Shown one piece after another: positions 1 to 54,746 of a DNA stretch of 64,000 nucleotides. The position numbers and the translations under genes are program-made. Position 1 is the first letter of the stretch; each line of letters begins with the position of its first letter. The notes below the pieces were generated by a model. That model was not told where the DNA came from and did no database searches. It saw only the letters and a list, made by a program, of their open reading frames with translations. This DNA comes from Rhizodiscina lignyota (taxonomy: Eukaryota), in NCBI GenBank assembly GCA_010015805.1, contig ML978139.1, positions 124,001 through 188,000 on the forward strand. The letters run 5' to 3'.

Positions 1-1750
1 ATCATAGCCTACCACCTCCAACCTACATCTCGACTCTCGTACAAGACTGTGCTAAGTTGTATGAGAGACTCTAAGGCGATTGTGGTTGACGTAATCGACG
101 GAATCAGTGATGAGCAGATACAAGACCGACATGCTCCGGGAAGCTTTCGCATGTCGCGAGATTACCACCACTCTCGACGTATATTGCATACAGATGGCTT
201 TCAACGATATCGGAAAGATGGTTGCCAATACACGTCGAACTTGTTCCAGGGACAAATTAGTCTCGCATTCTAGCGCACGCAGCACCTCGGTTCGATGCTG
301 TGCAAAGAGCGATGATGAGTCGTGTAGCAGCTGAGTGCTGGCACCCAAGAAGTGAAATCGCTTTGGTTTCGCCTTTGCCTTAAGCCTCAGTCATCGTGAT
401 TGCGGCCGCTACGAGTCTCAGGTCTTTCAGCCTAAAGGATAGAACCCCTGAAACAATGAGACTCTCGGCAATCAGAGCTGTCTCAACCCGCCGGCAAATA
501 AATGGAATATAAGAGAGAACATTGAGTGCGAAGCAGGAAGTCTCATGATACAGCGTTACTCGATTGGAAGTTTGACGAAATTCGTGGATACGTCTGTGGC
601 AACAACCCCGGGTCCATGTTGGTCATAATCGTGTGGAAAAGCTGGACTCTCTCCAAGCCTTGTGGCAAGTATTCCCTCAATCGCTAGGTTTTCATCGCTT
701 TCGTCGACTTTGTCAAGCTTTCTCGTTTCGAAGCTTCGGAAAATGAAGGGCCAGGGTCGGATCTGTTGGATTCTCCAAAGTACATCTAAATTGCGAGCGA
801 TGTCGGATTACCGAGGGTCGAGATGATCAAAGCAGGGAAGTCTCCGCGTACAGATCGATGCCATTCATGCAGGTTTTCCAATGTAACTCCTGTGGGAATA
901 AAAAACGCCACAAATTCCCAGTTGGGTTGATCGTGATAACGCTTCCAGCAGTCTCATTCCAGTGGAGTTCGATTGGATCCATGGGAGGTACTGGACGCAA
1001 CAATATCAATGTCATAAGCACTGCAGGAGTTGGTCCCGTGGCCATTGTGATATTGGCAGCATACCGAGTTGATTTAGTTTCGTCGTTGGGGATAGTCTTT
1101 CGCCAAGGATTAACCTGAGACTGAATTGAGATGCAGTGTCTCTCCATAGCGCTTCTTCCTCCAGAATTGCATCTTGAGAGGACCCTTCGATGGCTGGACC
1201 TCGAATGTTCTTCCAGTAATCCTGAGCTCTCTATCGGAGTATTCTTTCTGAAAATTACCGCGCCTTTGGAGAACAGTCCGTTGGACTTGGATGGTGGAGC
1301 AAGGGGCCAATGAAAGACATGTCTACTGCGGAAATGAAGCAGCCTGCGAGAACATCTGTAAAAGCCATGAACGGTCATGAAACCCAAGCATACTCGATCC
1401 GCGCTCTTGTTGTTCGGTTGGGGTAGAGACGAACAGACGCAAAGGACAAGGAGCTTTGGTGTGAGGATTCTCGCCAAGACATCTCAGGGCGCCTCCATGC
1501 CTTGATGCCACCACAAACGATCAAAAGGGAAGGCCTGTGCGGAAATCCACAAATCTGTCTTCAACTTCAAGAGAGGCTCGCCTTCTGCGAACCTCCAATG
1601 TGTCCTGTCGTTTTAGTTGTCCGAGGCAATGCTCATATGTTTATGCGAAATTCAAGATGGCTCATGATATATAGAATGGTGAGTGGTAGGATCATATTCC
1701 TAGCCTCTCGACGCCGAGACTCCCGAACGGATTATCTATGCAGCGCATAA
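1..1750 (-). pseudogene. dcl2: Degenerate Dicer-like 2 (DCL2-type) relic: helicase end, dimerisation domain, linker and RNase IIIa; runs off the window edge
   Basis: Manual minus-strand translation across frameshifts and stops gives collinear DCL2-like blocks: SRRREAR (~1715, cf. QRRGRAR), RILTPK..CSSLPQ (~1470), VNPW and MTLILLRPVPPMDPIELHWNE (~1110-950), PFIFRSF..ILATRL (~750-655), LPASHSMFSL/IPFICRRVETALIAESL..LKDLRLVAAAIT (540-395), and RFHFLGAS..SLFAQH (360-295, cf. RLEFLGDS..LFAQH). Confidence 0.8.
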
Positions 1751-1826
1751 CTACAATGCCAGAGAATCGTGCAACCAGATATGGTATGAAACGCCAGACG
1801 CGCTAGGCCGCATGCTGAAGAGAATG

Positions 1827-2893
1827 TTACAGGTTCGTCAGGTAGTCCTCCACTTCCTGCGGACTAAGTTTTCGGAATCTTGGCCCTACCGCACCTTCTA
1901 CGCCCTCATAGCCTAGAAGACGATCTTCTGGTGGCCCAACGATGCCTGTTACCCACGTTAGCAATGCATGTAGAACCAGATATGAGTTGAACATACCTAT
2001 CTCAACCGTCTCCCCGTTCATCTCTCCTTCTATCGTTTCCTTGAGAGTGAGCAGTGCGATGTGAATGGCATCTTCGAGTTCCAGGCCTTCCGTGTAGCGC
2101 TTCTCCAGGAATGTCTTCGCGCTAGTTGCACTCTTCCCGATCGCCGTGGCTTTCCATGGGAAATAGCTTCCACTTGGATCTACCTGGTACAGACTGGGGC
2201 CGCCTTTCAGAATCCCGCCTGTCTTTCCTGACGCTAGTTTCTTCTCAGCTTCTGGCTCATCGACGTCCTTTGCCTCAGCCTCAGGCTCGATGCCATCGTC
2301 CCATCCCGCAATCAGCAGACTAACGCCATATGGCCGAACGCCGCCGGACTGTGTAGCTTCTTGCATGACCCTCGCAACGTCCTGCACTAATATCCTCGTT
2401 GGCGGGTACTCATTGTAGATGCGCTTATAGCCCGTGTGAGAAACTTTCCGTGCCTTGTCGACCAGTATCCGGTAGTCTGGGCCCATGCCTGAATAGACCA
2501 TGCCGATGTTTGGTGTGATGAGGCTGACTTTTGACGAGGATTGCGAATCGATGAGAGGGGAAGACGATTTCTTTTCCGTAGCAAGGACGATGCCATTTGT
2601 CGCTGCAGAAACTGTTAGCCTACAAGGAGATATTCAGCTTAAACGTCAATCATCTTACCCTTTATGCCTAACGACGTGACGCCTTGATTGACTGCGTTCA
2701 GAGCATACTCTGTAGCTAGTGTAAGTTTTCATAACATGTCCAACAAGGCCAGAAGTTCAGGTAAATCTCATACCTATCTGAACCAGCTTTCCACTGCGAC
2801 ATGGTGAGTATGAAGGTCTCATAGAAGGTGATTAAACGAATCAACATACCTGGGAGAGAAAGTCGTGAGGGAGAACGAGTATCTATCTGCCAT
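1827..2893 (-). CDS. PRE8: 20S proteasome subunit alpha-2
   Basis: Spliced N-terminus [28 protein letters not shown], then [17 protein letters not shown] and [11 protein letters not shown]. Four introns, with a 20-nt exon at 2774-2793. Confidence 0.97.
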
Positions 2894-31306: not shown

Positions 31307-32643
31307 GAATAGAGGCGCGGTGACGAGCTAGTTGGGCCAGTGTGAGCGATTGGAAAAGAGAAGGAAGAGACATGAGAGTTTTCTCTAGCGGCGGTGCAAC
31401 GCGATGAATTGGAACCGAGGCTGGAGTGCTATGGGCATGGACCGTCGATTGCAAATAATGGTTGCAAAAACAATTTTCCATGACATTTCTCGAATTTCAT
31501 CAATTTCCGTCGTCCTTGTCAACTAGTAGGTGTCCGATATGCTCCATAGTTTCGAAGGTGGATATCTCGCTTCAAAAGATTCGTCTGATTCGTCGACCGG
31601 CACAAAACTGCCTAGAAAGTACGGAAACACTTTGCAAGTGGCACGCCCTCGAGGTTGTGTTAGTGTGTAACGCTTGAGGGCGATCAGCACTTACACTCCG
31701 AGGTAAGTGAGACTATCTCTAAAAGCACAGTTAGACGCTCTTCGGAGCGTACTAAACATTAGCGAACCATTGAAAGCCTTGTACATGTTATTGATTACAG
31801 AGCCTCCACACTATTGCTGCTCAGCGTCTTGACAGCTGCGTCAAACCTTTTTGTCACCCTCGACTCTTCGCGACGCCCCAAGCCTTGACGGGCCGTGGTT
31901 CTTGGGCGTTTCCTCTGCCCAGAGTTCTGGTCGTGTGCTCGATGCGCGACTTGCAGAGTTCCAGATCTCGTGACGGGCGTAGACGGACGGGGATACGGCA
32001 TCAATAGTTTTGGATGGGTCATCCTTCTATGTATTGCCGGTTTGGTGGCTAGCCTGTTTGGCGGTTGGAGACACAGCAGTTTGAGGTTGGGCACCCTGTC
32101 ATTGTCAAGCACTAATGACCGTTATTTGTGTGACATGCCTTCAACGGTGAAGAATCGTGCGAAAAGCTGTGCAAAGCTCAAGATCAATGAACGGTTTATT
32201 ATCATCGCGACAACTCCACGTTGCCGAGCTGTTAGTGTGCTTGGCCTAAAAAAAGACGCGCGGCGCTGAACGGCAGGGGCTAAGAGGCCGTTGCTGCGCT
32301 GCGCTGCGCCCGCTCCTTCTCCGCCGCTGCAGAGGCTGGTCAGGCATTGCATACGAGTCGCGGATGATACGCAACACTCGAACATCCGAACACCAGCCCG
32401 CCCATCCATCGCTCACCTCCACATCTCCACCTATTCGCTCACTCACTTATCACTTCGACCCTCTCGCTCAACGGTCCGCGGGGCTACCTTCATCCTAAAC
32501 TCTTCGCCTCCTTAATATTTCATCGCGCAGACATGTCATTCGCTTCGCAGCTCTACTAAATCAGAAAAGCCCCCCTACCAGCCCACCTCCACCCTCACGA
32601 GACCGGCTTGGATTTCCGAGCCGGTCACCCTCACATACTCAAA

Positions 32644-35159
32644 ATGATACCCTCAATACGAGCGTCATTACAACTCCTCCTCGTCCTCCTCATATCCACT
32701 CTCGCCACAGCACATTCCGTCGCCCGCAATCCTCTCACCCGCCTCGCCACTGTCCGTAATCCGACGATCCAAACTCAGAATTATCGAGTAAATGCTCTGT
32801 CCACATTCGACCTCACATTCGACGCATTCGACACGCGAATACGCCTCTCCCTCGAGCCTAACCACGATGTCATCGCCCCGGGGGCGCGAGTTTCGTATTT
32901 GGGCCCTGATGGAGAGGTTGAGCGCGAAGAGGAGATTCAGAGGCTAGATCATAAGGTTTTTAAGGGAACGGCTTGGAGAAAGGACAGTGCGGACATGTGG
33001 CAGCTTGTAGGCTGGGCCCGTGTATTCGTGAGAAGAGATGGCGTCAATCCACTGTTCGAAGGCGCCTTCAGCATCAACCATAATCATCATCACATCCAGA
33101 TGAGCAGCAGTTACATTTCCACAAAGAATACGCTAGATCCGGAGCTGGATTGGAGCAGTGCGGAAGATGAATTCCTGGTTGTGTGGCGGGATAGCGACAT
33201 CAGCAAGTTGAACGTGCACTCAGAATTGAAAAGAGACTTGGAAGACAGGCTGGCATGTGGCAGCGACAAGTTGGAATTCAATATGGGCGAGCAGAATCCG
33301 CTGTATGTTGGCAGCATGATGAAACGCGAGGACAGCAGCGTTTGGAACGCGCCGATTGGAAATATGTTCAGCAAGAGGCAAATAGACAGCACACCTGGCT
33401 CAGGCAATTCTGCAGGCGTGAATCTTGCAAGCACGATTGGGAATCCTGCAGGTTGCCCCACAACCAGGAAAGTTGCGCTCGTCGGAGTCGCGACAGACTG
33501 CACGTATACCGGCACCTTCAACAGCACCCAGACCACGCGCGAGCATGTCATCACCCAGATGAACACCGCGAGCAACTTATACGAGCACACATTCAATATT
33601 TCGCTCGGTCTGCAGAATTTGACGATCAGCCCATCGAATTGCCCCGGCAGTCCGCAGCAGGCGTCTCCTTGGAACCAACCGTGCAGCGACAATGTCAATA
33701 TACAGGATCGATTGAACCTGTTTAGCGCATGGAGGGGTACGAAAGATGATGATAATAGCCATTGGACGCTGTTGACGAATTGCAATTCTGGCTCTGCTGT
33801 TGGATTAGCCTGGCTGGGTATGGCGTGCGTTAATACGGCGCAGACTTCGAACAGTAGCTCCGGCACGGAGACCTCGAGCGGCGCGAACGTTGTAGCGAAG
33901 ACACCTGAAGAGTGGCAAGTCATTGCACACGAGACAGGTCACACTTTTGGTGCTGTTCACGATTGTACCTCGCAGACCTGCTCCGACGGCACCGTCACCG
34001 CGCAGCAATGCTGTCCCCTTAGCGCTAAAACCTGCGATGCCGGAGAAAAATACATCATGAACCCGTCTACTGCCGAAGGTATTACCACCTTCTCACCCTG
34101 CACTCTCGGTAACATCTGTGCCGCTATGGGCCGCAACAGCGTCAACACACAGTGCTTCAAGGACAACAAAGGCGTCACCACAATCTCTGGACAGCAATGC
34201 GGCAATGGCATTGTCGAAGAAGGCGAAGAGTGCGATTGCGGCGGCACAGAAGGGTGTGGCGATAACGCGTGCTGCGATCCGACGACGTGCAAGTTCAAGT
34301 CCGGTGCTGTGTGCGACGACTCAAACGAGGATTGCTGCCGTTCTTGCCAGTTCGCGTCCGCTGGAACTGTCTGCCGTCCTAGCACTGGTGACTGCGATCC
34401 CCAGGAGACTTGCCCTGGAAACTCACCGACTTGTCCCTCCGACATCACCTCTCCGAATGGCCAGAGCTGTGGAAATGGCCTCACGTGTGCGAGCGGCCAG
34501 TGCACCAGCAGAGACCAGCAGTGCAAGACCGTCATGGGCAGCTACACAAGCGGAAACGATACTTATGCATGCGATAGCTACACGTGCAGTCTCAGCTGTG
34601 CGAGTCCAGAATTTGGACAGGGAGTGTGTTACGGGCTTCAGCAGAACTTCCTAGATGGAACGACGTGTGGCGGTGGAGGCACTTGCAAGAATGTGAGTGT
34701 TCCTTCATCATTAATGATTTTTACCCTATAACATACTGACATATATCGTCACAGGGTCAATGCAAAGGCTCCAATGTAGGCAAAGAGATCAAATCCTGGA
34801 TTGACGACCACAAACCCCTCGTCATTGGGATTTGTGCCGGCGTCGGCGGCCTCATCCTCCTCGCGATCCTCAGTTGCTGTTGGTCGAGTTATCGAAGAAG
34901 ACAGCGGCGCAGAGCGCTCGCACGCAACAAGGTTGTCTCAGGCAGCAGCTGGGTCGGCCCTCCCCCTCAAGGCATGAGAGGTAGCCGCAGTCAGATGCAG
35001 ATGCAGCCGCCGCCGCCATGGGCGCAGCAATTACCCCCACCATATAATCAGAGCAGAGGCAGTGTCATGAGCGGTGCCAATGGAGCACCCCGTGGGGGAG
35101 GATGGAATGGACCGCCCCCGCCGGCTTTCCAGAGGACTCAGAGCGTGAGATATGCATAG
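32644..35159 (+). CDS. Fungal ADAM (disintegrin and metalloprotease), ADM-B-like
   Basis: Signal peptide, prodomain with KR sites, HETGHTFGAVHD zinc motif, Met-turn YIMNP, disintegrin CGNGIVEEGEECDCG, Cys-rich region, TM helix and Pro-rich tail. One intron at ~34693-34754. Confidence 0.95.
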
Positions 35160-35661: not shown

Positions 35662-38600
35662 ATGTTATCCGCATTCACAGCTCGTCCTATCGTCGAGCTC
35701 AAGCAGCGCGACAAGTCGAAGATTGAGTCCATCTTGGCCTATGGTATCTACGATGCATATTCAATCTACAATATAGTAATTCTAACATTCATTAAGGTGA
35801 TCGAGTCTTCGTAGGCCTCAATACCGGGTCCCTCCGCATCTACCGCGTCAACGAGACGCCAGAGGACGACTTGAACCACCAGCGCGATGCCTCCACTGCC
35901 ACTGCCACTGCCACAGCCACAGACGGTAGCGAAGCAAACGGCAACGATGTACAAGCCAAACCACCGCCCAAACCCCGCCTCGTAGACCTCCTCCGCGAAG
36001 AAGAGAAGTTTGCCAAACGCGGCGTTCAGCAGCTCGCCATCATCAAGGAAGCGAATCTCCTCCTCTCTCTGTCAGACGGCTATGTGAGCTTGCACGATGT
36101 ACAGTCCTACGCACTGCAATCACGGCTCGAGAAGACGAAAGGCGCGAGCGTCTTCGCGGTGACGAGTAATATCGTCAAAGATGCACAAACAGGCATCCCG
36201 AGCATCGTGAGCAGGCTTGCTGTCGCGGTCAAGCGGAAAATCATACTGTGGAAGTGGGCGGACATGGAGATGGTGGAGGAAGGGGAGGGTGAGGGTAAGG
36301 GCGAGATTAGCCTCCCTGCGAGCGTGAAAAGCTTGACGTGGGCGAGTGCGACGAAGGTGCTCGCAGGCATGGATCCGGGCTTCGTGCTCGTGGATGTGGA
36401 CTCGGGTAGCATCACGGATATCAACAAACCAGGCAGCAATATCGGGGCTGTCGATGCGGGCGTCAGGTTCGGCGCGATTAATAGCAGTGGCATGAGCTAT
36501 ATGGGCATGGGAGGCTGGGTGCCGAAGCCGATGGCCACGAAGCTAGCGGAGGGCGAGATGCTGCTCGCCAAAGACGTCAATACGTTGTTCATAGATGCGG
36601 ACGATGGCAAGGCGAGGGATAAGCGGCAGATTCCTTGGGCGCAGGCTCCGGAGACGGTGGGATATTCGTATCCTTACTTGCTTGCGCTGCAGCCGGCGGC
36701 GAAGGGCGCTCTCGAAGTGCGGAACCCGGATACGTTGAGTTTGCTACAGACGATTGCGTTGCCGAATGCGGGCGTGCTGCATGTGCCCCAGCCGAATATC
36801 AGTCTAGCCCATGCGGCGAAGGGGTTCTTAGTCGCTAGTGAGAGGGTTGTTTGGCGCATGGCGGCGCTGGACTACGACTCGCAGATCGAAGAACTCATCG
36901 GTAAAGAGCGATTCGATGAGGCGATCAGCCTGTTAGGAATGCTGGAAGACACTCTGCTCAAAGACAAGGAGGGAAAATTGAGAGAGGTCAGGATTCTGAA
37001 GGCGCACGCGCTATTTGAAGCGAGGAGGTATAGGCAAGCCTTTGAATACTTCTCTGAGGCGAAGGCGCCACCAGAGAGAGTCATAAGCCTGTATCCCAGG
37101 AGTATTGCCGGGGATCTGGCACCCGAAGAGAGCGTGAAGGATGAAGAGAGTGTGGCTGGTGAAGAAGATGGTTCTGCTGAGGCGAGCAAGGCGATGCTTG
37201 GTACGACACCGAGTTCGACAGTTGGCAAGTCACTCCTGGGCTTGGGCCGAAGTGGACATTCGAGAGCAGACTCGGATACATCGTCAATCAGATCGGGGAA
37301 GGGCGGTTCTGCCTTTGACAGCTCGCCTAGCAAGTCGAAAGAGAGCGTTACTGGCAGAGGGATGGAAGGGAAGGATTTCGCCGTTGCTGTCAACGAGCTC
37401 TGCCGTTTCCTCGTTCAGATCCACGGGCAGCTGCTCAAGGTCCTGAACCCGGATGGCTCACTGAAAGAAGACACTCCTCATAACAAGGAAAATAGCACGA
37501 TCTATCCACTCATCATGCACTTGCTGAACAGCTCCAGCGACTCCGACGACTGGACCCAGCAGCTAAAAGATGTGGCAACCCTCGTCGACACCACTTTGTT
37601 CAAAGCGTACATGCTGGTCAACCCTGGCCTTGCAGGCTCGCTCTTCCGTCTTTCCAATTTCTGTGATCCAGCAGTAGTCACAGAGAAGCTCTATGAATCG
37701 TCCCGCTACACCGACCTCATCGACTTTCTGCAAGGCAAGAAACTGCACCGCGAAGCGCTAACCTTACTTGCTAAATTCGGCAAGTGTGAAGAGATGAAGG
37801 AGGAAGAGGTCATGCCCCAACTGAGAGGGCCACGGCGAACCGTGCAGTATCTGCAAATGCTACCTCCAGAGATGATTGATGTGATTCTCGAGTTTACGGA
37901 ATGGCCTGTGAGAGCAGACCGGGGAATGGGCATGGAGGTTTTCATCGCGGACACCGAGAATGCGGAGACACTGCCGCGACATAAGGTGCTTGACTTCTTG
38001 GCATCTATTGACGACGATCTCGCCGTCAGGTATCTGGAGCACATCATCGATGAGCTGGACGACATGACTGCGGCGTTCCATCAACGGTTGGTGGAGCTAT
38101 ACCTCAAGACTGTTAAGGACAAGGAGTCAGGGGAAGAGAAGAAGAAGGCGGAGTTGAGAGACAAGCTATTAAGCTTCTTACAGAAAAGTGGGGAGTATAA
38201 TAAGTGGAGGATATTCCAGATGCTACCAGCCGATGACCCAGACTTTTACGAGGCGAGAGCGGTGGTGTTGAGTAAGATGGGACAGCATAAGCAGGCACTG
38301 AGTATTTATGTGTTTCAATTGCGTGATTACGAGAAGGCTGAAGAGTACGTCGTTCCCCGTCAATTGTTCTAAACGGGAAGATTCGCTAACAGGGAACAGC
38401 TATTGTAATCGCATCTACCTTGCTGAATCAACCTCGAATACTCAGCAAGAGTCTGAAGATAGCGCGCCGTCAATCTATCATACGCTGCTCACGCTCTACC
38501 TCACACCACCTGCGCCTTATTCGTCTGACAAATCGCTACAAGTTCCTCTTCTTACTGCTGCACTATCACTTTTATCACATCATGGACCACGTTTGCCAGC

Positions 38601-44678: not shown

Positions 44679-45733
44679 TTAAATCATCTTCTTAATGCCT
44701 GTGCCCCGTAGTTTCTCGAAATGAAACATCTTGATAAACTGGGTTTCCTGGAATACAATTAGCGCTGAAGTACCACGGGCTTCGATAGAGCTTACGAGAA
44801 CGGCCTTGGGAAGGAAGCTCGACGCAAACCATATCAATGAAGCGGAAGATCCTTCCCAGACGTATCTGCTTCGCCCTCCGAAGCTCAGCAGATTCAGAAG
44901 CCAGGAGAATGCGCCCTTTGCTAGGATTCTGTCGACTGTCCTCCTCGCATATGTCTCGTTATCAATGCCGACGGTTTGAGCATGCGTAAGGCGACCCTTG
45001 TATTCTTCCGCAATTGGAGAATAATATGAGCCTTCTGGGAGGGTACGATCCACACGCGCAAGGTTCGATTTGACTCCCCCTGTGGCTATAACTACGACCC
45101 GGACTCCGAACTGGGATAGTTCGACGCGAAGTGTATCGGAATAAGCGTGTAGGGCGGCTTTGGAAGCGTTGTAGACTGACGAGAAGGCGTATGGCCTGCG
45201 CAATTGAAAATTGTCAGCATCGTAATACGCAGTATACTGAGCAGATTGGGCGACTGACATGACTCCTGCTAAGCTGCCGATCTGGACGATCGTTCCTTTC
45301 GCTTCGATGAGAAGAGGCGAAAACTCTTTGCACATTCGCATCACAGAGAAGACGTTAGCTTCAAACGTGTCGCGAACCTCTGCCATGTCGACATCTAGCG
45401 CCGGCATTGTGTAGTTTCTACCCGCATTGTTCACTAGTATGTCGAGCTTTCCCTCATTTCGCTTGGAGACTTCATCTCTCAGCGCAATGATGCTGCCTGG
45501 GTCTGTCAATTCGAGTGACAATGTCTCGATGCCGAGGTCTGCGAGCTCTGATATTTTGGCGGTGGTACGGGCGGTCGCGAAGACGCGGAAGCCTCGAGAG
45601 TGAAATTGTCGTGCGAGCGCATTTCCGATTCCTCCCGGAGAGCAACTGCAGAGAATGTTAAGTCTGAAGTGCTAGGAATTGTCGGTGATTCTCACCCTGT
45701 AATCAAGACAGTCTGCTGTTTCTGGGAGGGCAT
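44679..45733 (-). CDS. AYR1: 1-acyl-dihydroxyacetone-phosphate reductase-like short-chain dehydrogenase
   Basis: VLITGCSPGGIG, FRVFATAR, GKLDILVNNAG, catalytic YNASK. Three introns. Confidence 0.88.
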
Positions 45734-46849: not shown

Positions 46850-46945
46850 AGTCTCCTGACATCTCTCATCACCATTTTTCATCTCGAACAAAAACGTACC
46901 TCATTAGTCTATAATCCGAGACCATCAAAACTGCACTAAATCGAT

Positions 46946-49900
46946 ATGGCCATCACAAATGGTGTTCCAACACTTCCAGATCCGACCTCCGATCTGTACT
47001 GGTCCGATTTTCGCGGTACTATCCAGCAATTCTTCGCTGCAAATGCCGAAAAGCATCCAGAGAAGCCATGTGTCATCGAGACAGGCCTTAGAGATGGCAC
47101 TGGCAAACGCAGTTTCAATTACCGCCAGATACATGAGGGCAGCAACGTCGTAGCGCAACATCTTACAGCCAACGGCATCCGGAGAGGCGAGGTCGTCATG
47201 ATCTTCGCTCATCGTGGCGTCGATCTGGTTGTTGGCATTATGGGCGTTCTGAAGAGCGGCGCTGCCTTCTCAGTATTGGATCCTGCTTACCCTGCAGACA
47301 GACAGAAGATCTATCTAGAAGTAGCAACTCCGAGAGCTCTGATTACCATCAAGAAAGCTACAGACGACGTTGGACCTATCTCTCCTCTAGTTCGAGAGTT
47401 CTTGGACACTACCAGGGTCAACAATGAGCCACTGCTGAGAACGGAAATTCCAGCCCTCCAATTGCTCGACGACGGGAATCTTCTCGGTGGCAATTTTGAC
47501 GGAAAAGACTGCCTCGAAGGTGCAAGGACATTGAAAGAAAAGATGCCCGACGTTGTACTTGGTCCTGATTCCACACCAACGCTGTCGTTCACGTCAGGCA
47601 GCGAAGGCAAGCCCAAGGGGGTGCTGGGACGTCATTATTCGCTGTGCAAATACTTTCCATGGATGAGCGAAGCCTTTAATCTCGGCCCCGATGATCGTTT
47701 TACAATGCTTTCAGGCATTGCACATGGTAAGGTGCCTAGAGTGAGACAATGCGTCTTCAGCTAGCTAATATATGATTACAGATCCCATCCAGCGTGACAT
47801 ATTCACTCCGCTCTTTCTGGGAGCCTGCCTCCTTGTGCCGTCAATCGAGGATATTCAACATGAGCTACTTGCGGAATGGATGCGCAAGTACCAGGCCACA
47901 GTCACACATCTCACACCTGCCATGGGCCAAATTCTCGTCGGTAAGTTATCGGGGCGTATCCCATTACCATTTGAGATATTAGTCTTACAATCGGGTAGGT
48001 GGCGCAACCGCCAAATTTCCAAGTCTGCATCACGCCTTTTTCGTAGGCGATTTACTCATCAAGCGAGACTGCAGAAAGCTTCAGGAGCTGGCAGAGAATG
48101 TGAGAATAGTTAACATGTATGGTAAGTTTGAAACTCAGGGCAACGATGCCCTCGCTCGCGCTGATCTGCCGGATAGGTACGACTGAGACCCAAAGAGCGG
48201 TTAGCTACTACGAGGTTCCTAGCCGAGCTGAGAACCCAGATTTCTTAAACGGGTTGGGCGACGTCATACCTGCTGGAAAAGGCATGCAGCATGTGCAGCT
48301 TTTGATTGTCGACCGTGACAACATCCAGCGACAATGTGGCGTTGGCGAGAGCGGCGAGATTTACGTCCGAGCTGGAGGTCTTGCTGAAGGGTATCTGGGC
48401 CTGCCAGAACTTAACAAACAGAAATTTGTGCAGAATTGGTTCGTCTCAAATGATACGTGGGTACAGAAAGAAGAGAAGCTCTTTGGCGGCAAGAGACCGA
48501 TCTGGGCACAGGATACCGCAACATGGAAGGGCCCGCGTGACCGGCTTTACCGGAGTGGCGACCTTGGTCGTTACATGCCAGATGGCAATGTTGAAGTCAC
48601 AGGCCGTGTCGACAACCAAGTCAAGATTCGTGGCTTCCGCATTGAGCTTGGTGAGATTGATTCACATCTGTCCCAGCATCCACTTGTGAGAGAAAACATC
48701 ACCATGCTGAAGCGCGACAAATTCGAGGAGCATACTTTAGTGTCGTACTTTGTGCCCGAGATGTCGAGATGGAATCTCTGGCTCAAGGAAACTCACGGCA
48801 AAGAAGATCTCTCCGAAGAAGTGGACATGGTCAGTATGCTGAAGCGATTCCGGCTATTGAGAGATGACATCCGAGCGCACCTCAAGACAAAACTTCCGGA
48901 GTATGCGGTCCCGAGCGTACTTGTTCCACTTAGTCGTTTCCCGCTCAATCCAAACGGTAAGGTCGACAGACCCAAATTACCTTTCCCAGAACCTTGGGAG
49001 CTTTCAGCTGGTGCGCGTAGGCCATCTGAGATAGGCGGAATCTGGACCGAGACTGAAAAGGCTGTTGCACAGATTTGGACCGGCTTGTTGAAGGGCAAGG
49101 AAGTGTCTCAAACGGATTCATTCTTCGACATTGGCGGTCACAGTATTCTGGCGCAGCAAATGTTGCTCGAAGTCCGGAGACGATGGCAGGGCGTGGATGT
49201 ACCTTTGAGAGTACTCTTCAAACACCCAACGGTCCGCGGCTTCGCTCTCGAAATCAATCGTGCACTTGATCCAATTGGCCTTCAGTATGACGAGGAACAA
49301 GATAGCGGCACGTCAGATGAGGACTATGCGGCTGACGCTGCGGAACTTGCGCAGAAACTCCCGCCGACCTTCAAGCCTGCAGATCGACTGACAGGAGAGA
49401 AGGCGACAGTGCTGCTGACAGGAGCAACTGGCTTTTTGGGCTCGTATCTCCTGAGGGATCTAATGAGTCGCAAGGAGGTCAGTAAGGTCATCACACTGGT
49501 GAGGGCGAAAGATACAGCTGCGGCAAAGAAGCGAGTGGTCCTCACCTGTAGCGGATATGGAATATGGAATGAAGAGTGGGAATCGAGGATTGAGTGTATT
49601 ACCGGTGATCTGGCCCAGCCCAAATTAGGAGTAGGAGATGCGGGATGGCAGAGATTGGCATCTGAGGTATCGCTTGTCATCCACAATGGTGCTCGAGGTG
49701 AGACTTTCGTTCATGCAAAGATCTTCTTGACATCGAAGTAGCTCTTTCTCACCTTTCTTAGTCCATTGGGTTGTGCCATATTCAACACTGCGCAAGTCCA
49801 ACGTCTTGAGCACATACGAGGCAATATCACTCTGTGCAATCGGAGTGCCGAAGCGCTTTGTCTTTGTCAGTTCGACCAGTGCACTTGACAACGAGCACTA

Positions 49901-50771
49901 TGTCCAACTCTCCGAAGACAGCATCAAGACCGGTGGTAATGGCGTTCCCGAATCAGATGATCTCTCTGGATCTCGTAAGGGTCTGGCAACAGGATATGGA
50001 CAGTCCAAGTGGGCAAGCGAATACGTGACCAGGAAAGCTGGTGAGAGGGGCCTGCAGGGTTGCATTGTGAGACCTGGTTATGTGACTGGAGATCCGATTT
50101 CCGGTGCAACGAACGAAGACGATTTCCTAGTCCGCTTGCTCAAGGCCTGCGTACAACTCGGCGCTTATCCTGACATTACCAACACAGTCAATATGGTCCC
50201 GGTCACGCATGTGGCTCGACTCGTGGCTGCTTGCGCGTTCAACCCACCAGTCCAACCCCTCGGAGTTGCACAAGTGACGAGTCACCCCCGAATGCATATG
50301 ACTGAGTTCGTTGGGTGCTTGGCATCATTCGGCTACGATGTGAGAGAGGTATCATACGAGGAATGGTGCGAAAAGGTCAGAGCCTTTGTGGCTGATCCGA
50401 AGAAAGAAGAGTTTGCGCTGTAAGTACACGTTTTCCCTTGCTCGTTTCGGAGTATCCGCTTATGCGCTCTTAGCATGCCATTGCTTCACCATGTTACAGC
50501 GGATCTTCCCGCAGATAGCAAAGCGCCAGAGCTCGATGACAGAAACGCTGCCGCCGCCCTAAAGGAAGACGCGAAGTTGACAGGGGAAGATCTAAGCGCT
50601 GGTGCAGCTGTCACACCCAATACTGTTGGGGTCTATGCTGCGTTCCTCGTGGCATTGGGTATCATGCCGCCGCCAACCGGATCTGGGCCGCAGAATCTCC
50701 CAAAGATCGATCTCGGAAAAGCCCAAAAGGAGGCGCTTGCGCAGATCGGCGGAAGAACAGGGACAGCTTAG
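46946..50771 (+). CDS. LYS2: L-2-aminoadipate reductase (A-T-R architecture)
   Basis: [51 protein letters not shown], Ppant site FFDIGGHS, reductase TGATGFLG and GYGQSKW. Five introns. Confidence 0.97.
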
Positions 50772-53856: not shown

Positions 53857-54746
53857 ATGGGATATGGTACGCTTCGGACGTCCCAAACAGGCGCGGTGCT
53901 TCGCGCTGTCCTTGATGCGAACGACATCAATGTCATCACGTGGCAATTGATGATGGACCTGAATGAGCTTCTGGATAAGCTGGCGAACGATGAGACGGTG
54001 AAGATTGTCGTTTTCGAGAGTGCGGTCAAAGACTTCTTCTCCGCGCATTTAGATCTTCGACCGGATGCCGGTACGTCTTGAACGCGTTATGTCCTGAGTT
54101 AATGATTAGCGATCCCAAATGGCTGAGACCAATCGTAGAGTCCAAGATGCCGCCGATGCATCCCGACTACCCGAATCTCATCTACTTCATGGGTCTGATG
54201 CAGAAGTTGTCGACGGTGCCAGTGGTAACGATCGCTTTGGTAGAAGGCCGCGCTCGGGCAGGAGGTCTTGATTTTATGATGGCTTGCGACATGCGCTTTG
54301 GCGTGAAAGATCGTGCAATCGTAGCACCCATTGAGGCTAGAGTCAGTCTAATGTCTGCAAGTATCCCGGCATTCATCAACCACATGGGTCTTGGTCGCGC
54401 GTCAGAGTGGTTCTACAGTGGCCACGACATGGACGCCGAGGCTGCGGAGAAGTATGGGATCCTGAACAGGAGCTTTGCGACGTCCAAGGAGGCGAAGGAT
54501 TATGTCGATGGGTACTGTGCGACGGTTGGAAAGCTGCCCCGCCACAACCTGCGGGAGATGAAGCAGTATGTCGCCAAGAGGATGTATCCATTGGGCAGCA
54601 TGGAAGAGATCAACAATCGTTTCGTCAGCCTGCTGCAGAGCGAAGAGACGGCCAAACTGATCCCTAAGCTTATGGAGCTGGCGCCATCAGGCTATGGCGA
54701 GGAGGAGCTTAACTTGAGCGAAGTGCTGATGAAAGCGCACGAATGA
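53857..54746 (+). CDS. Enoyl-CoA hydratase/isomerase (crotonase superfamily) protein
   Basis: VKIVVFESAVKDFFSAHLDL, TIALVEGRARAGGLDFMMACDMRFG, MDAEAAEKYGILNR. An intron at 54071-54138 restores the frame. TATAAA at ~53761. Confidence 0.88.

What the first reader, a model, noticed from the sequence alone, without database searches (positions are those of the whole stretch)
1..1750. Fossil Dicer-like 2 gene: possible loss of the main quelling/antiviral Dicer
Seen: at least six minus-strand peptide blocks in the order expected for fungal DCL2, separated by stops and frameshifts. The RNase IIIa signature (R-L-E-F-L-G-D) reads RFHFLGA at 360-340, so both acidic residues are gone. PRE8 ends at 1827, leaving no room for most of the N-terminal helicase. 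Known: DCL2 is the principal siRNA-producing and antiviral Dicer in Neurospora, Cryphonectria and Magnaporthe. Inference: this lineage lost dcl2 long ago and may be partly or wholly RNAi-deficient, which would affect tolerance of mycoviruses and transposons.
Basis: partly seen in the sequence, partly recalled or inferred. Interest (0 to 1): 0.8.

Follow-up and report, generated by a model that had tools for sequence, protein, structure and literature searches.

The report
Decayed Dicer-like 2 gene relic
Just downstream of an intact proteasome gene, this wood-dwelling fungus carries the broken, heavily deleted remains of its Dicer-like 2 gene, so at least this arm of its RNA-silencing defence has been lost.

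Summary
The minus strand of window 85-1270 holds a collinear but shattered remnant of a fungal Dicer-like 2 (DCL2) gene. A read-through of one frame found only Dicer-like proteins in 1.84 billion sequences (5 of 5 hits). A frameshift-aware alignment to a 102-sequence DCL2 consensus scores 158 and 107; 40 shuffles averaged 41.7, maximum 62. RFHFLGA lies exactly at 360-340, where the RNase IIIa signature belongs.

Lesions: about 12 frameshifts, one in-frame stop, no detectable helicase region (consensus 1-635), and a clean internal deletion of consensus 990-1253 at window 289/288.

The window matches Rhizodiscina lignyota. Three Pleosporales gene models fuse the orthologous proteasome gene to DCL2, so the relic sits at the ancestral locus. 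An independent contig at about 160x depth is identical.

An intact dcl2 elsewhere is not excluded. DCL1, Argonaute and RdRP could not be searched, so wider RNAi loss is untested. This is a new, unpublished example of a known kind of event.

The parts
1827..2633 (-). The stop codon is at 1827-1829. A canonical GT..AG intron lies at about 1947-1998.
   Evidence: Pfam PF00227 matches at E 1.7e-47. The ORF is 86-88% identical to the N-terminal 259-279 aa of three fused proteasome+DCL2 gene models. The 17-aa insert relative to the orthologue marks the intron.
1271..1826 (-). Spacer with no detectable DCL2 similarity. About 635 consensus residues (DEAD/ResIII, Helicase_C and the start of Dicer_dimer) would have to lie here, and 556 nt cannot hold them.
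   Evidence: The profile search finds nothing significant here. The only candidate, 1536-1386, scores 38, within the shuffle range of 41.7 +/- 6.6.
289..1270 (-). DCL2 relic, segment 1, matching consensus 636-989. It covers the end of the Dicer dimerisation domain, the middle (platform/PAZ-like) region including a trace of the PKRxDFLH motif at about 651-630, the pre-RNase IIIa helix, and the start of RNase IIIa.
   Evidence: The frameshift-aware alignment scores 158, with 318 codons aligned, 88 identical, 9 frameshifts and 1 in-frame stop. Forty shuffles gave mean 41.7, sd 6.6, maximum 62, and the plus strand scores 44. hmmsearch blocks reach E 4.2e-7 and 1.4e-3. Collinear tblastn HSPs to P0004 have a summed E of 1.45e-8.
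340..360 (-). Degenerate RNase IIIa signature RFHFLGA (consensus RLEFLGD). The conserved E is now H and the conserved D is now A.
   Evidence: Shown by direct translation and by alignment to consensus 968-980 and 962-989. Only 1 of the 5 columns that are at least 90% conserved in this block is kept.
288..289 (-). Deletion junction. Consensus position 989 (early RNase IIIa) abuts 1254 (late RNase IIIb), so about 264 residues are lost with no spare bases between the two sides.
   Evidence: The two best local alignments end at 289 and begin at 288, and both are in frame 0 across the junction.
85..288 (-). DCL2 relic, segment 2, matching consensus 1254-1326. This is the C-terminal part of RNase IIIb, with core [25 protein letters not shown] at 220-116.
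   Evidence: The core block scores E 1.3e-9 in hmmsearch against the whole window. The frameshift-aware score is 107, with 69 codons aligned, 32 identical and 3 frameshifts. Nine of the 11 columns that are at least 90% conserved are kept. tblastn to P0005 aa 1279-1363 gives E 4.5e-7.
1..84 (-). Presumed continuation of the relic towards the dsRNA-binding tail. It runs off the window.
   Evidence: This is an inference. About 100 consensus residues remain after position 1326, and only 84 nt are left. No significant match was found here.

Best explanation
Window 1-1270 (minus strand) is a unitary pseudogene. It is the in-place, non-functional remnant of the ancestral Dicer-like 2 gene of Rhizodiscina lignyota, lying directly downstream of the proteasome alpha-subunit gene on the same strand.

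Shown:
- Collinear DCL2 similarity from the end of the Dicer dimerisation domain to the end of RNase IIIb.
- About a dozen frameshifts and one in-frame stop.
- Replacement of two conserved acidic residues in the RNase IIIa signature.
- A clean deletion of about 264 residues joining early RNase IIIa to late RNase IIIb.
- No detectable helicase region.

Inferred:
- The gene was inactivated after the Rhizodiscina lineage split from the Aulographum lineage, which keeps an intact gene. It has since drifted neutrally.
- It makes no Dicer protein. Any dsRNA processing in this fungus must therefore rely on another enzyme, most likely a DCL1-type Dicer, if one is present.
For: 1. Specificity. A phmmer search with the frame-2 read-through against 1.84 billion proteins gave 5 hits at E <= 0.001, and all 5 are Dicer-like. 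Two of them carry the source name 'Dicer-like protein 2', and all 5 carry Ribonuclease_3 and Dicer_dimer domains.

2. Collinearity and significance. tblastn HSPs are collinear. Three profile blocks reach E 1.3e-9 to 1.4e-3, in the right order, on one strand, and nowhere else in the 64 kb. The frameshift-aware scores are 158 and 107, against shuffles of 41.7 +/- 6.6 with maximum 62 (n = 40) and a plus-strand score of 44.

3. Locus. Three of the 120 listed relatives of the Aulographum hederae DCL2 are gene models that fuse a proteasome alpha subunit to DCL2. Their proteasome part is 86-88% identical to the window's ORF right up to its last residues, and the DCL2 part follows directly. That is the same order and strand as in the window.

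4. Non-function. Three frame changes leave no room for introns. RFHFLGA replaces RLEFLGD. No Pfam domain is detectable in any of the ORFs tested in the region.

5. Decay. In a tree of 197 columns the relic has the longest terminal branch of 103 tips, 1.31 against a median of 0.245 and a maximum of 1.17 for the others.

6. Not an assembly error. A Logan contig of run X1 at a word depth of about 160 matches 1-2700 with 0 differences.
Against: - The residual blocks are not extremely diverged. Identity to the consensus is 19-58%, at or just below the minimum seen in intact genes, and 19 of the 26 columns that are at least 90% conserved are kept. These blocks were found because they are still similar, so this cannot date the loss. 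It leaves open a younger inactivation than 'long ago'.
- Run X1 may be the very data from which the window was assembled, so the check is not independent of the strain.
- The frameshift count depends on my own scoring scheme (frameshift penalty 10) and may be too high.
- The synteny evidence comes from three Pleosporales gene models only. The locus in the closest sequenced relative, Aulographum hederae, could not be inspected.
- No expression data exist for this stretch.
Confidence: 0.88

Rival explanations
1. The relic is a decayed partial duplicate or leftover, while an intact, functional dcl2 copy survives elsewhere in the Rhizodiscina lignyota genome. In that case no DCL2 function has been lost.
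For: The whole genome could not be searched. The absence of a Rhizodiscina protein concerns only the 120 best of 547 hits. By eye, several other Dothideomycetes present, such as Glonium stellatum and Patellaria atrata, are missing from that list too. The absence is therefore weak evidence.
Against: The relic occupies the ancestral position directly after the proteasome gene. An intact copy elsewhere would need an earlier duplication or relocation. Dothideomycete DCL2 clusters mostly stand for one contig each, which gives no sign of frequent duplication.
Confidence: 0.08
2. The region still encodes a short, highly diverged RNase III-like protein or regulatory RNA, read through unusual splicing. 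On this view it is a remodelled gene and not a dead one.
For: The deletion at 289/288 keeps frame 0 across the junction and joins an RNase IIIa start to an RNase IIIb end. The D and E of SDIVES are retained. A 218-aa open frame exists at 827-1483.
Against: About 12 frameshifts and one stop lie along the only homologous path, and three frame changes have no room for an intron. The signature's acidic residues are lost. No ORF tested in the region matches any Pfam family. Only about 41 codons separate the signature from SDIVES, which is too short for an RNase III domain.
Confidence: 0.02
3. The frameshifts and stops are sequencing or assembly errors in an otherwise intact gene, or the similarity is due to chance.
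For: Only one run holds the stretch, and it may be the source of the assembly.
Against: An independent contig at a word depth of about 160 is identical over 2700 bases. Errors cannot remove about 900 codons. Chance is excluded.
Confidence: 0.01

Closest known systems
Intact fungal Dicer-like 2 (DCL2) of Dothideomycetes, for example the Aulographum hederae protein KAF1988783.1 (P0005, 1445 aa) and the proteins named 'Dicer-like protein 2'
   Same: The domain order is the same from Dicer_dimer to RNase IIIb. So are several motifs: NPW after the dimerisation domain, LPAxxSxF, IPxIxxRxExxLIAE, the xFLGx signature and SDIVES..AIY..SxG..xxCExF. The genomic position after the proteasome alpha gene also matches.
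   Different: The relic has no helicase half and has lost consensus 990-1253. It carries about 12 frameshifts, and the catalytic E and D of the IIIa signature are replaced. No open reading frame and no Pfam-detectable domain remain.
Truncated RNA-silencing genes of Aspergillus nidulans (Hammond et al. 2008, Eukaryot Cell 7:339). I saw this only as a reference entry, plus the review's statement that A. nidulans has one Dicer and one Argonaute (PMC7763443, passages). Details are recalled.
   Same: It is a filamentous ascomycete in which one of the two ancestral Dicer paralogues is no longer intact, leaving a reduced RNAi gene set.
   Different: As I recall, not from any call, the truncated A. 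nidulans Dicer is the DCL1/MSUD-type paralogue and is still transcribed, while the DCL2-type DclB is the working antiviral enzyme. Here the DCL2-type gene is the one destroyed, and it is far more decayed.
Single-Dicer genome of Zymoseptoria tritici (Kettles et al. 2019, PMC6620828, passages read)
   Same: It is another Dothideomycete with only one recognisable DCL gene and truncated Argonaute paralogues. This shows that loss of a Dicer paralogue happens in this class.
   Different: The passages I read do not mention a relic of the lost Dicer at a conserved locus. I did not determine which paralogue Z. tritici keeps.
Whole-pathway RNAi loss in Cryptococcus deuterogattii, Ustilago maydis and Saccharomyces cerevisiae (PMC4778953, abstract in the listing; PMC7763443, section 8 passages)
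   Same: RNAi components have been lost in evolution, sometimes leaving pseudogenes.
   Different: Those lineages lost Dicer, Argonaute and RdRP together. Here only the loss of DCL2 is shown.

Membership tests
Fungal Dicer-like 2 (as the gene of origin) | Significant, collinear similarity to DCL2 proteins, stronger than to any other family | tested here: met
   All 5 of 5 library hits are Dicer-like, and 2 of them are named DCL2 by their source. Collinear blocks were found. In the tree the relic nests among Dothideomycete DCL2 sequences, as sister to P0192 with support 0.875.
Fungal Dicer-like 2 (as the gene of origin) | Conserved position directly downstream of the proteasome alpha-subunit gene, on the same strand | tested here: met
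   Three fused proteasome+DCL2 gene models come from three Pleosporales families. The locus was not inspected at the DNA level in any relative.
Functional Dicer / DCL2 enzyme | N-terminal DExD/H helicase (DEAD/ResIII plus Helicase_C) | tested here: not met
   There is no match to consensus 1-635 anywhere in the 64-kb window. Only 556 nt lie between the relic and the proteasome stop codon.
Functional Dicer / DCL2 enzyme | Dicer dimerisation domain (PF03368) | tested here: inconclusive
   Only the last part (from consensus 636) aligns, across two frameshifts. Pfam finds no match in the ORFs.
Functional Dicer / DCL2 enzyme | RNase IIIa domain with its signature E and D | tested here: not met
   RFHFLGA stands in place of RLEFLGD. 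The domain is cut off after about 28 residues by the deletion at 289/288.
Functional Dicer / DCL2 enzyme | Complete RNase IIIb domain | tested here: not met
   Only consensus 1254-1326 remains. The D and E of SDIVES are kept, but the IIIb signature region is deleted.
Functional Dicer / DCL2 enzyme | Uninterrupted reading frame, allowing for introns | tested here: not met
   Twelve frame changes and one stop lie on the best path. Three of the changes leave 16 nt or less between blocks, or the blocks overlap.
RNAi-deficient fungus (whole-pathway loss) | Absence of all Dicers, Argonautes and RdRPs from the genome | not testable with these tools
None of the 25 large ORFs of the window tested (of 34 listed) carries an RNAi domain, which says nothing about the rest of the genome.

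The most novel reading that the evidence does not exclude
The dcl2 relic is the visible tip of a wider collapse. On this reading Rhizodiscina lignyota, and perhaps the family Rhizodiscinaceae, has lost the whole quelling/antiviral siRNA arm: the QDE-2-type Argonaute and the QDE-1-type RdRP as well as DCL2. It would then be a rare naturally RNAi-impaired filamentous Pezizomycotina, with a datable pseudogene trail. That would allow a test of whether mycovirus load or transposon content rose after the loss.
Probability: 0.12. Interest if true: 0.55.

Novelty: new member of a known kind. Interest (0 to 1): 0.33.

Why it matters
DCL2 is the Dicer tied to antiviral defence in Cryphonectria parasitica and to retrotransposon silencing in Magnaporthe. 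With DCL1 it serves quelling in Neurospora (review PMC7763443, Table 2, passages).

A natural DCL2 knockout that still shows its relic at the ancestral locus proves loss, as opposed to an annotation gap. It also gives a lineage in which to ask how a filamentous ascomycete copes without this enzyme.

The event itself, loss of one Dicer paralogue, has precedents in Zymoseptoria tritici and Aspergillus nidulans, so it is an addition and not a surprise. My searches found no paper that mentions Rhizodiscina together with Dicer, and none of the 16 listed papers (of 17 found) that mention Rhizodiscina concerns RNA silencing. Supplementary tables of large surveys were not searchable.

A practical by-product is that three public Pleosporales gene models wrongly fuse the proteasome gene to DCL2.

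Tried and rejected
- Pfam on 10 raw ORFs of 1-1830 found no Dicer-related family at E <= 1; nine had no match and 747-1118(+) had only weak zinc-finger-type matches below their cut-offs.
- phmmer of the ORFs 52-390 and 380-622 against PDB sequences found no Dicer. The only hit was a prohibitin at E 0.3.
- The search for homologous proteins with the frame-0 read-through, residues 342-610, option 'longer', found nothing at E <= 10.
- A search of the window's own genome is not possible, because none is held.
- Four look-ups in the scan's earlier findings returned nothing.
- No RNA holder is listed for the stretch. I draw no inference about expression from this.
- A candidate Dicer_dimer trace at 1536-1386 (GIKAWRRPEMSW...) scores 38, inside the shuffle range, and clashes with the better assignment at 1270-1141. 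I rejected it.
- hmmsearch offered a second reading of KPKRFHFLGA as the upstream PKRxDFLH motif (score -0.7). I rejected it because it would break collinearity, and because a better PKRxDFLH trace lies at about 651-630.
- I considered that the parent gene was a helicase-less Dicer, because the best hits P0004 (852 aa) and the P0007 cluster (798-874 aa, 15 members) lack the helicase. These proteins start inside the Dicer_dimer domain and come from metagenome or Logan gene calls. They are more likely last-exon ORF calls, and the point is unresolved.
- The absence of a Rhizodiscina protein among the 120 listed hits is too weak to count as evidence of absence.
- My first literature search used too loose a setting and returned only unrelated Dicer papers.
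- Composition shows no AT-rich, RIP-like signature in 1-1830. GC is 0.486 there against 0.516 for the window.

Full report
**What is there**

The window is fungal. The ORF at 1827-2633 (minus) is a proteasome alpha-type subunit (Pfam PF00227, E 1.7e-47). Its stop codon is at 1827-1829.

Downstream on the same strand, the three reading frames of 1-1826 are full of stops. They nevertheless contain recognisable Dicer motifs. None of the raw ORFs matches a Pfam family or a PDB Dicer sequence, so the similarity is faint at the level of single ORFs.

**Is it more than chance?**

I translated each minus frame with stops read as X. I sent the frame-2 read-through to an exhaustive phmmer search of 1.84 billion representative proteins. 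Five proteins scored E <= 0.001 (best 2.3e-5), and all five are Dicer-like:
- P0006, named 'Dicer-like protein 2' (Vezdaea aestivalis).
- P0008, named 'Dicer-like protein 2' (Puttea exsequens).
- P0005, from Aulographum hederae.
- Two shorter unnamed proteins, P0004 and P0007 (names).

All five carry Ribonuclease_3 and Dicer_dimer domains. The three long ones also carry DEAD and Helicase_C.

tblastn of the five proteins against the whole 64-kb window puts every significant HSP on the minus strand of 86-1309, in protein order. The summed E for P0004 is 1.45e-8, and P0005 gives 4.5e-7.

A profile built from 102 DCL2 proteins was run against all 2386 six-frame pieces of the window. It finds three significant pieces:

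| Window | Profile positions | E-value |
|---|---|---|
| 220-116 | 1278-1312 | 1.3e-9 |
| 1141-920 | 679-753 | 4.2e-7 |
| 514-386 | 915-957 | 1.4e-3 |

Nothing else in the window scores better than E 4.9. A smaller 7-protein profile gave the same picture.

I then wrote a frameshift-aware local aligner (BLOSUM62, gap 11/1, frameshift 10, stop -6) and aligned the profile consensus to the minus strand of 1-1826. The best score is 158. The plus strand scores 44. Forty shuffles of the region give 41.7 +/- 6.6 with a maximum of 62. After masking the first path, the second-best alignment scores 107. The third scores 38, which is noise.

**Anatomy **

Segment 1 aligns consensus 636-989 to window 1270-289. 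It has 318 aligned codons, 88 identical, nine frameshifts and one in-frame stop. In order, it holds:
- The end of the Dicer dimerisation domain.
- The NPW motif region (SQVNPWRK).
- The LHWNET block.
- EFVAFFIP..LHEW.
- A trace of the PKRxDFLH motif (ERVQLFHT, about 651-630).
- IMRLPASHSMFSLI.
- IPFICRRVETALIAESL...LRLVAAAITMTEA.
- KRFHFLGASTQLLHDSSSLFAQH.

The last item is the RNase IIIa signature region. The conserved E is now H and the conserved D is now A.

Segment 2 aligns consensus 1254-1326 to window 288-85. It has 69 codons, 32 identical and three frameshifts. Its core is [30 protein letters not shown], which is the C-terminal part of RNase IIIb.

The two segments abut at 289/288 with no spare base, and frame 0 runs across the junction. 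About 264 consensus residues, from early RNase IIIa to late RNase IIIb, were therefore removed by one clean deletion.

About 100 consensus residues (the dsRNA-binding tail) remain after position 1326, and only 84 nt are left. The relic therefore runs off the window's left edge.

Upstream, 1271-1826 has no detectable DCL2 similarity. It cannot hold the about 635 residues of helicase and early dimerisation domain.

Three frame changes (920/923, 505/514, 386/369) leave 16 nt or less between blocks, or the blocks overlap. They cannot be introns.

**Whose genome, and is this the ancestral locus?**

The 858-aa Vps39-like ORF at 35796-38372 is 100% identical to a protein that NCBI names from Rhizodiscina lignyota. 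This species belongs to Dothideomycetes, order Aulographales.

I used the DCL2 of Aulographum hederae, in the same order, as a query. It returned 547 hits at E <= 1e-20, of which the best 120 are listed. Many of them are named 'Dicer-like protein 2'.

Three of the 120 also carry proteasome domains:
- P0206, Plenodomus tracheiphilus.
- P0207, Stagonosporopsis vannaccii.
- P0258, Stemphylium lycopersici.

Pfam places the proteasome domains at the N-terminus and the Dicer domains behind them. Their first 259-279 residues are 86-88% identical to the window's proteasome ORF. In two of the three that match runs up to the final residues (...EVEDYLTN), and the DCL2 sequence follows at once.

These are gene-model fusions of two tandem, same-strand neighbours. 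They show that proteasome gene followed by dcl2 is a conserved arrangement in at least three Pleosporales families. The relic occupies exactly that place, so it is the decayed resident gene and not a stray fragment.

**Is it real DNA?**

Only one public run holds the stretch. Its Logan contig, at a word depth of about 160, covers 1-2700 with no substitution, insertion or deletion. The run may be the source of the assembly. This excludes consensus or assembly errors but not strain-specific lesions.

**How decayed is it?**

In the six blocks the relic is 19-58% identical to the consensus. That is at or below the minimum of the 102 intact proteins, whose medians are 39-77%. The relic keeps 19 of the 26 columns that are at least 90% conserved. 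The blocks were found because they are still similar, so this overstates preservation.

In a FastTree of the 197 shared columns the relic has the longest terminal branch of 103 tips: 1.31 against a median of 0.245 and a maximum of 1.17 for the others. It nests among Dothideomycete DCL2 sequences.

Aulographum keeps a full-length gene with all domains. I infer that the loss happened on the Rhizodiscina side of that split. I cannot date it.

There is no RIP-like drop in GC.

**What remains open**

No Rhizodiscina protein is among the 120 listed DCL2 relatives. However, the list stops at 879 bits, and by eye it also lacks several other Dothideomycetes that appear. This is only weak evidence against an intact second copy.

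Of the 34 ORFs of 200 aa or more in the window, I scanned 25, and none carries an RNAi domain. That says nothing about the rest of the genome.

No RNA run is listed for the stretch, so expression is unknown.

**Comparison with what is known**

Loss of one Dicer paralogue in Pezizomycotina has precedents:
- Zymoseptoria tritici has a single DCL and truncated Argonaute paralogues (PMC6620828, passages).
- Aspergillus nidulans has one Dicer and one Argonaute (review PMC7763443, passages). The primary paper on its truncated silencing genes (Hammond 2008) I saw only as a reference entry, and its details are recalled.
- Whole-pathway losses are known in Saccharomyces cerevisiae, Ustilago maydis and Cryptococcus deuterogattii (PMC7763443, section 8 passages; PMC4778953, abstract in the listing).

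No paper in the library mentions Rhizodiscina together with Dicer. The 16 listed papers (of 17 found) that mention Rhizodiscina concern taxonomy, secondary metabolism and surveys. The genome paper itself (PMC7082219) has no occurrence of RNAi, Dicer or silencing in its main text. Supplementary tables of large surveys were not searched.

**Verdict**

It is a new, unpublished instance of a known kind of event. Its wider meaning depends on a whole-genome census of RNAi genes that I could not run.

Noticed in passing
P0206, P0207, P0258 (proteins): Three public Pleosporales gene models (Plenodomus tracheiphilus, Stagonosporopsis vannaccii, Stemphylium lycopersici) fuse the proteasome alpha-subunit gene to DCL2 in one 1620-1649-aa protein. 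These are almost certainly annotation errors caused by the tight tandem arrangement. They skip the first 36-95 residues of DCL2.
   Followed up: yes
P0004 and the P0007 cluster (P0007, P0009-P0022): A set of 798-874-aa DCL2-like proteins from metagenome and Logan contigs lacks the helicase half and starts inside the Dicer dimerisation domain (Pfam profile positions 16-21). They may be last-exon ORF calls on fungal contigs, or real helicase-less Dicers. They were the best matches to the relic's 5' part.
   Followed up: partly
window 1947-1998 (minus strand): The long ORF of the proteasome gene reads through a 51-52-nt intron with GTATGT...CTAAC...AG signals. This shows up as a 17-aa insert relative to the orthologue.
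   Followed up: partly
window 46940-50423 (plus strand): Three adjacent ORFs carry AMP-binding, PP-binding and NAD_binding_4 domains. This is the layout of an NRPS-like carboxylic-acid reductase. A short-chain dehydrogenase lies at 44679-45671 and an enoyl-CoA hydratase-like ORF at 53994-54746, so this may be a small secondary-metabolite cluster.
   Followed up: no
window 32560-34731 (plus strand): A single 723-aa ORF encodes an ADAM-like metalloprotease with Reprolysin and Disintegrin domains.
   Followed up: no
window 289/288: The 264-residue internal deletion keeps reading frame 0 across the junction and joins the start of RNase IIIa to the end of RNase IIIb. This may reflect a deletion between the two homologous RNase III domains while the gene was still open, or it may be coincidence.
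   Followed up: partly
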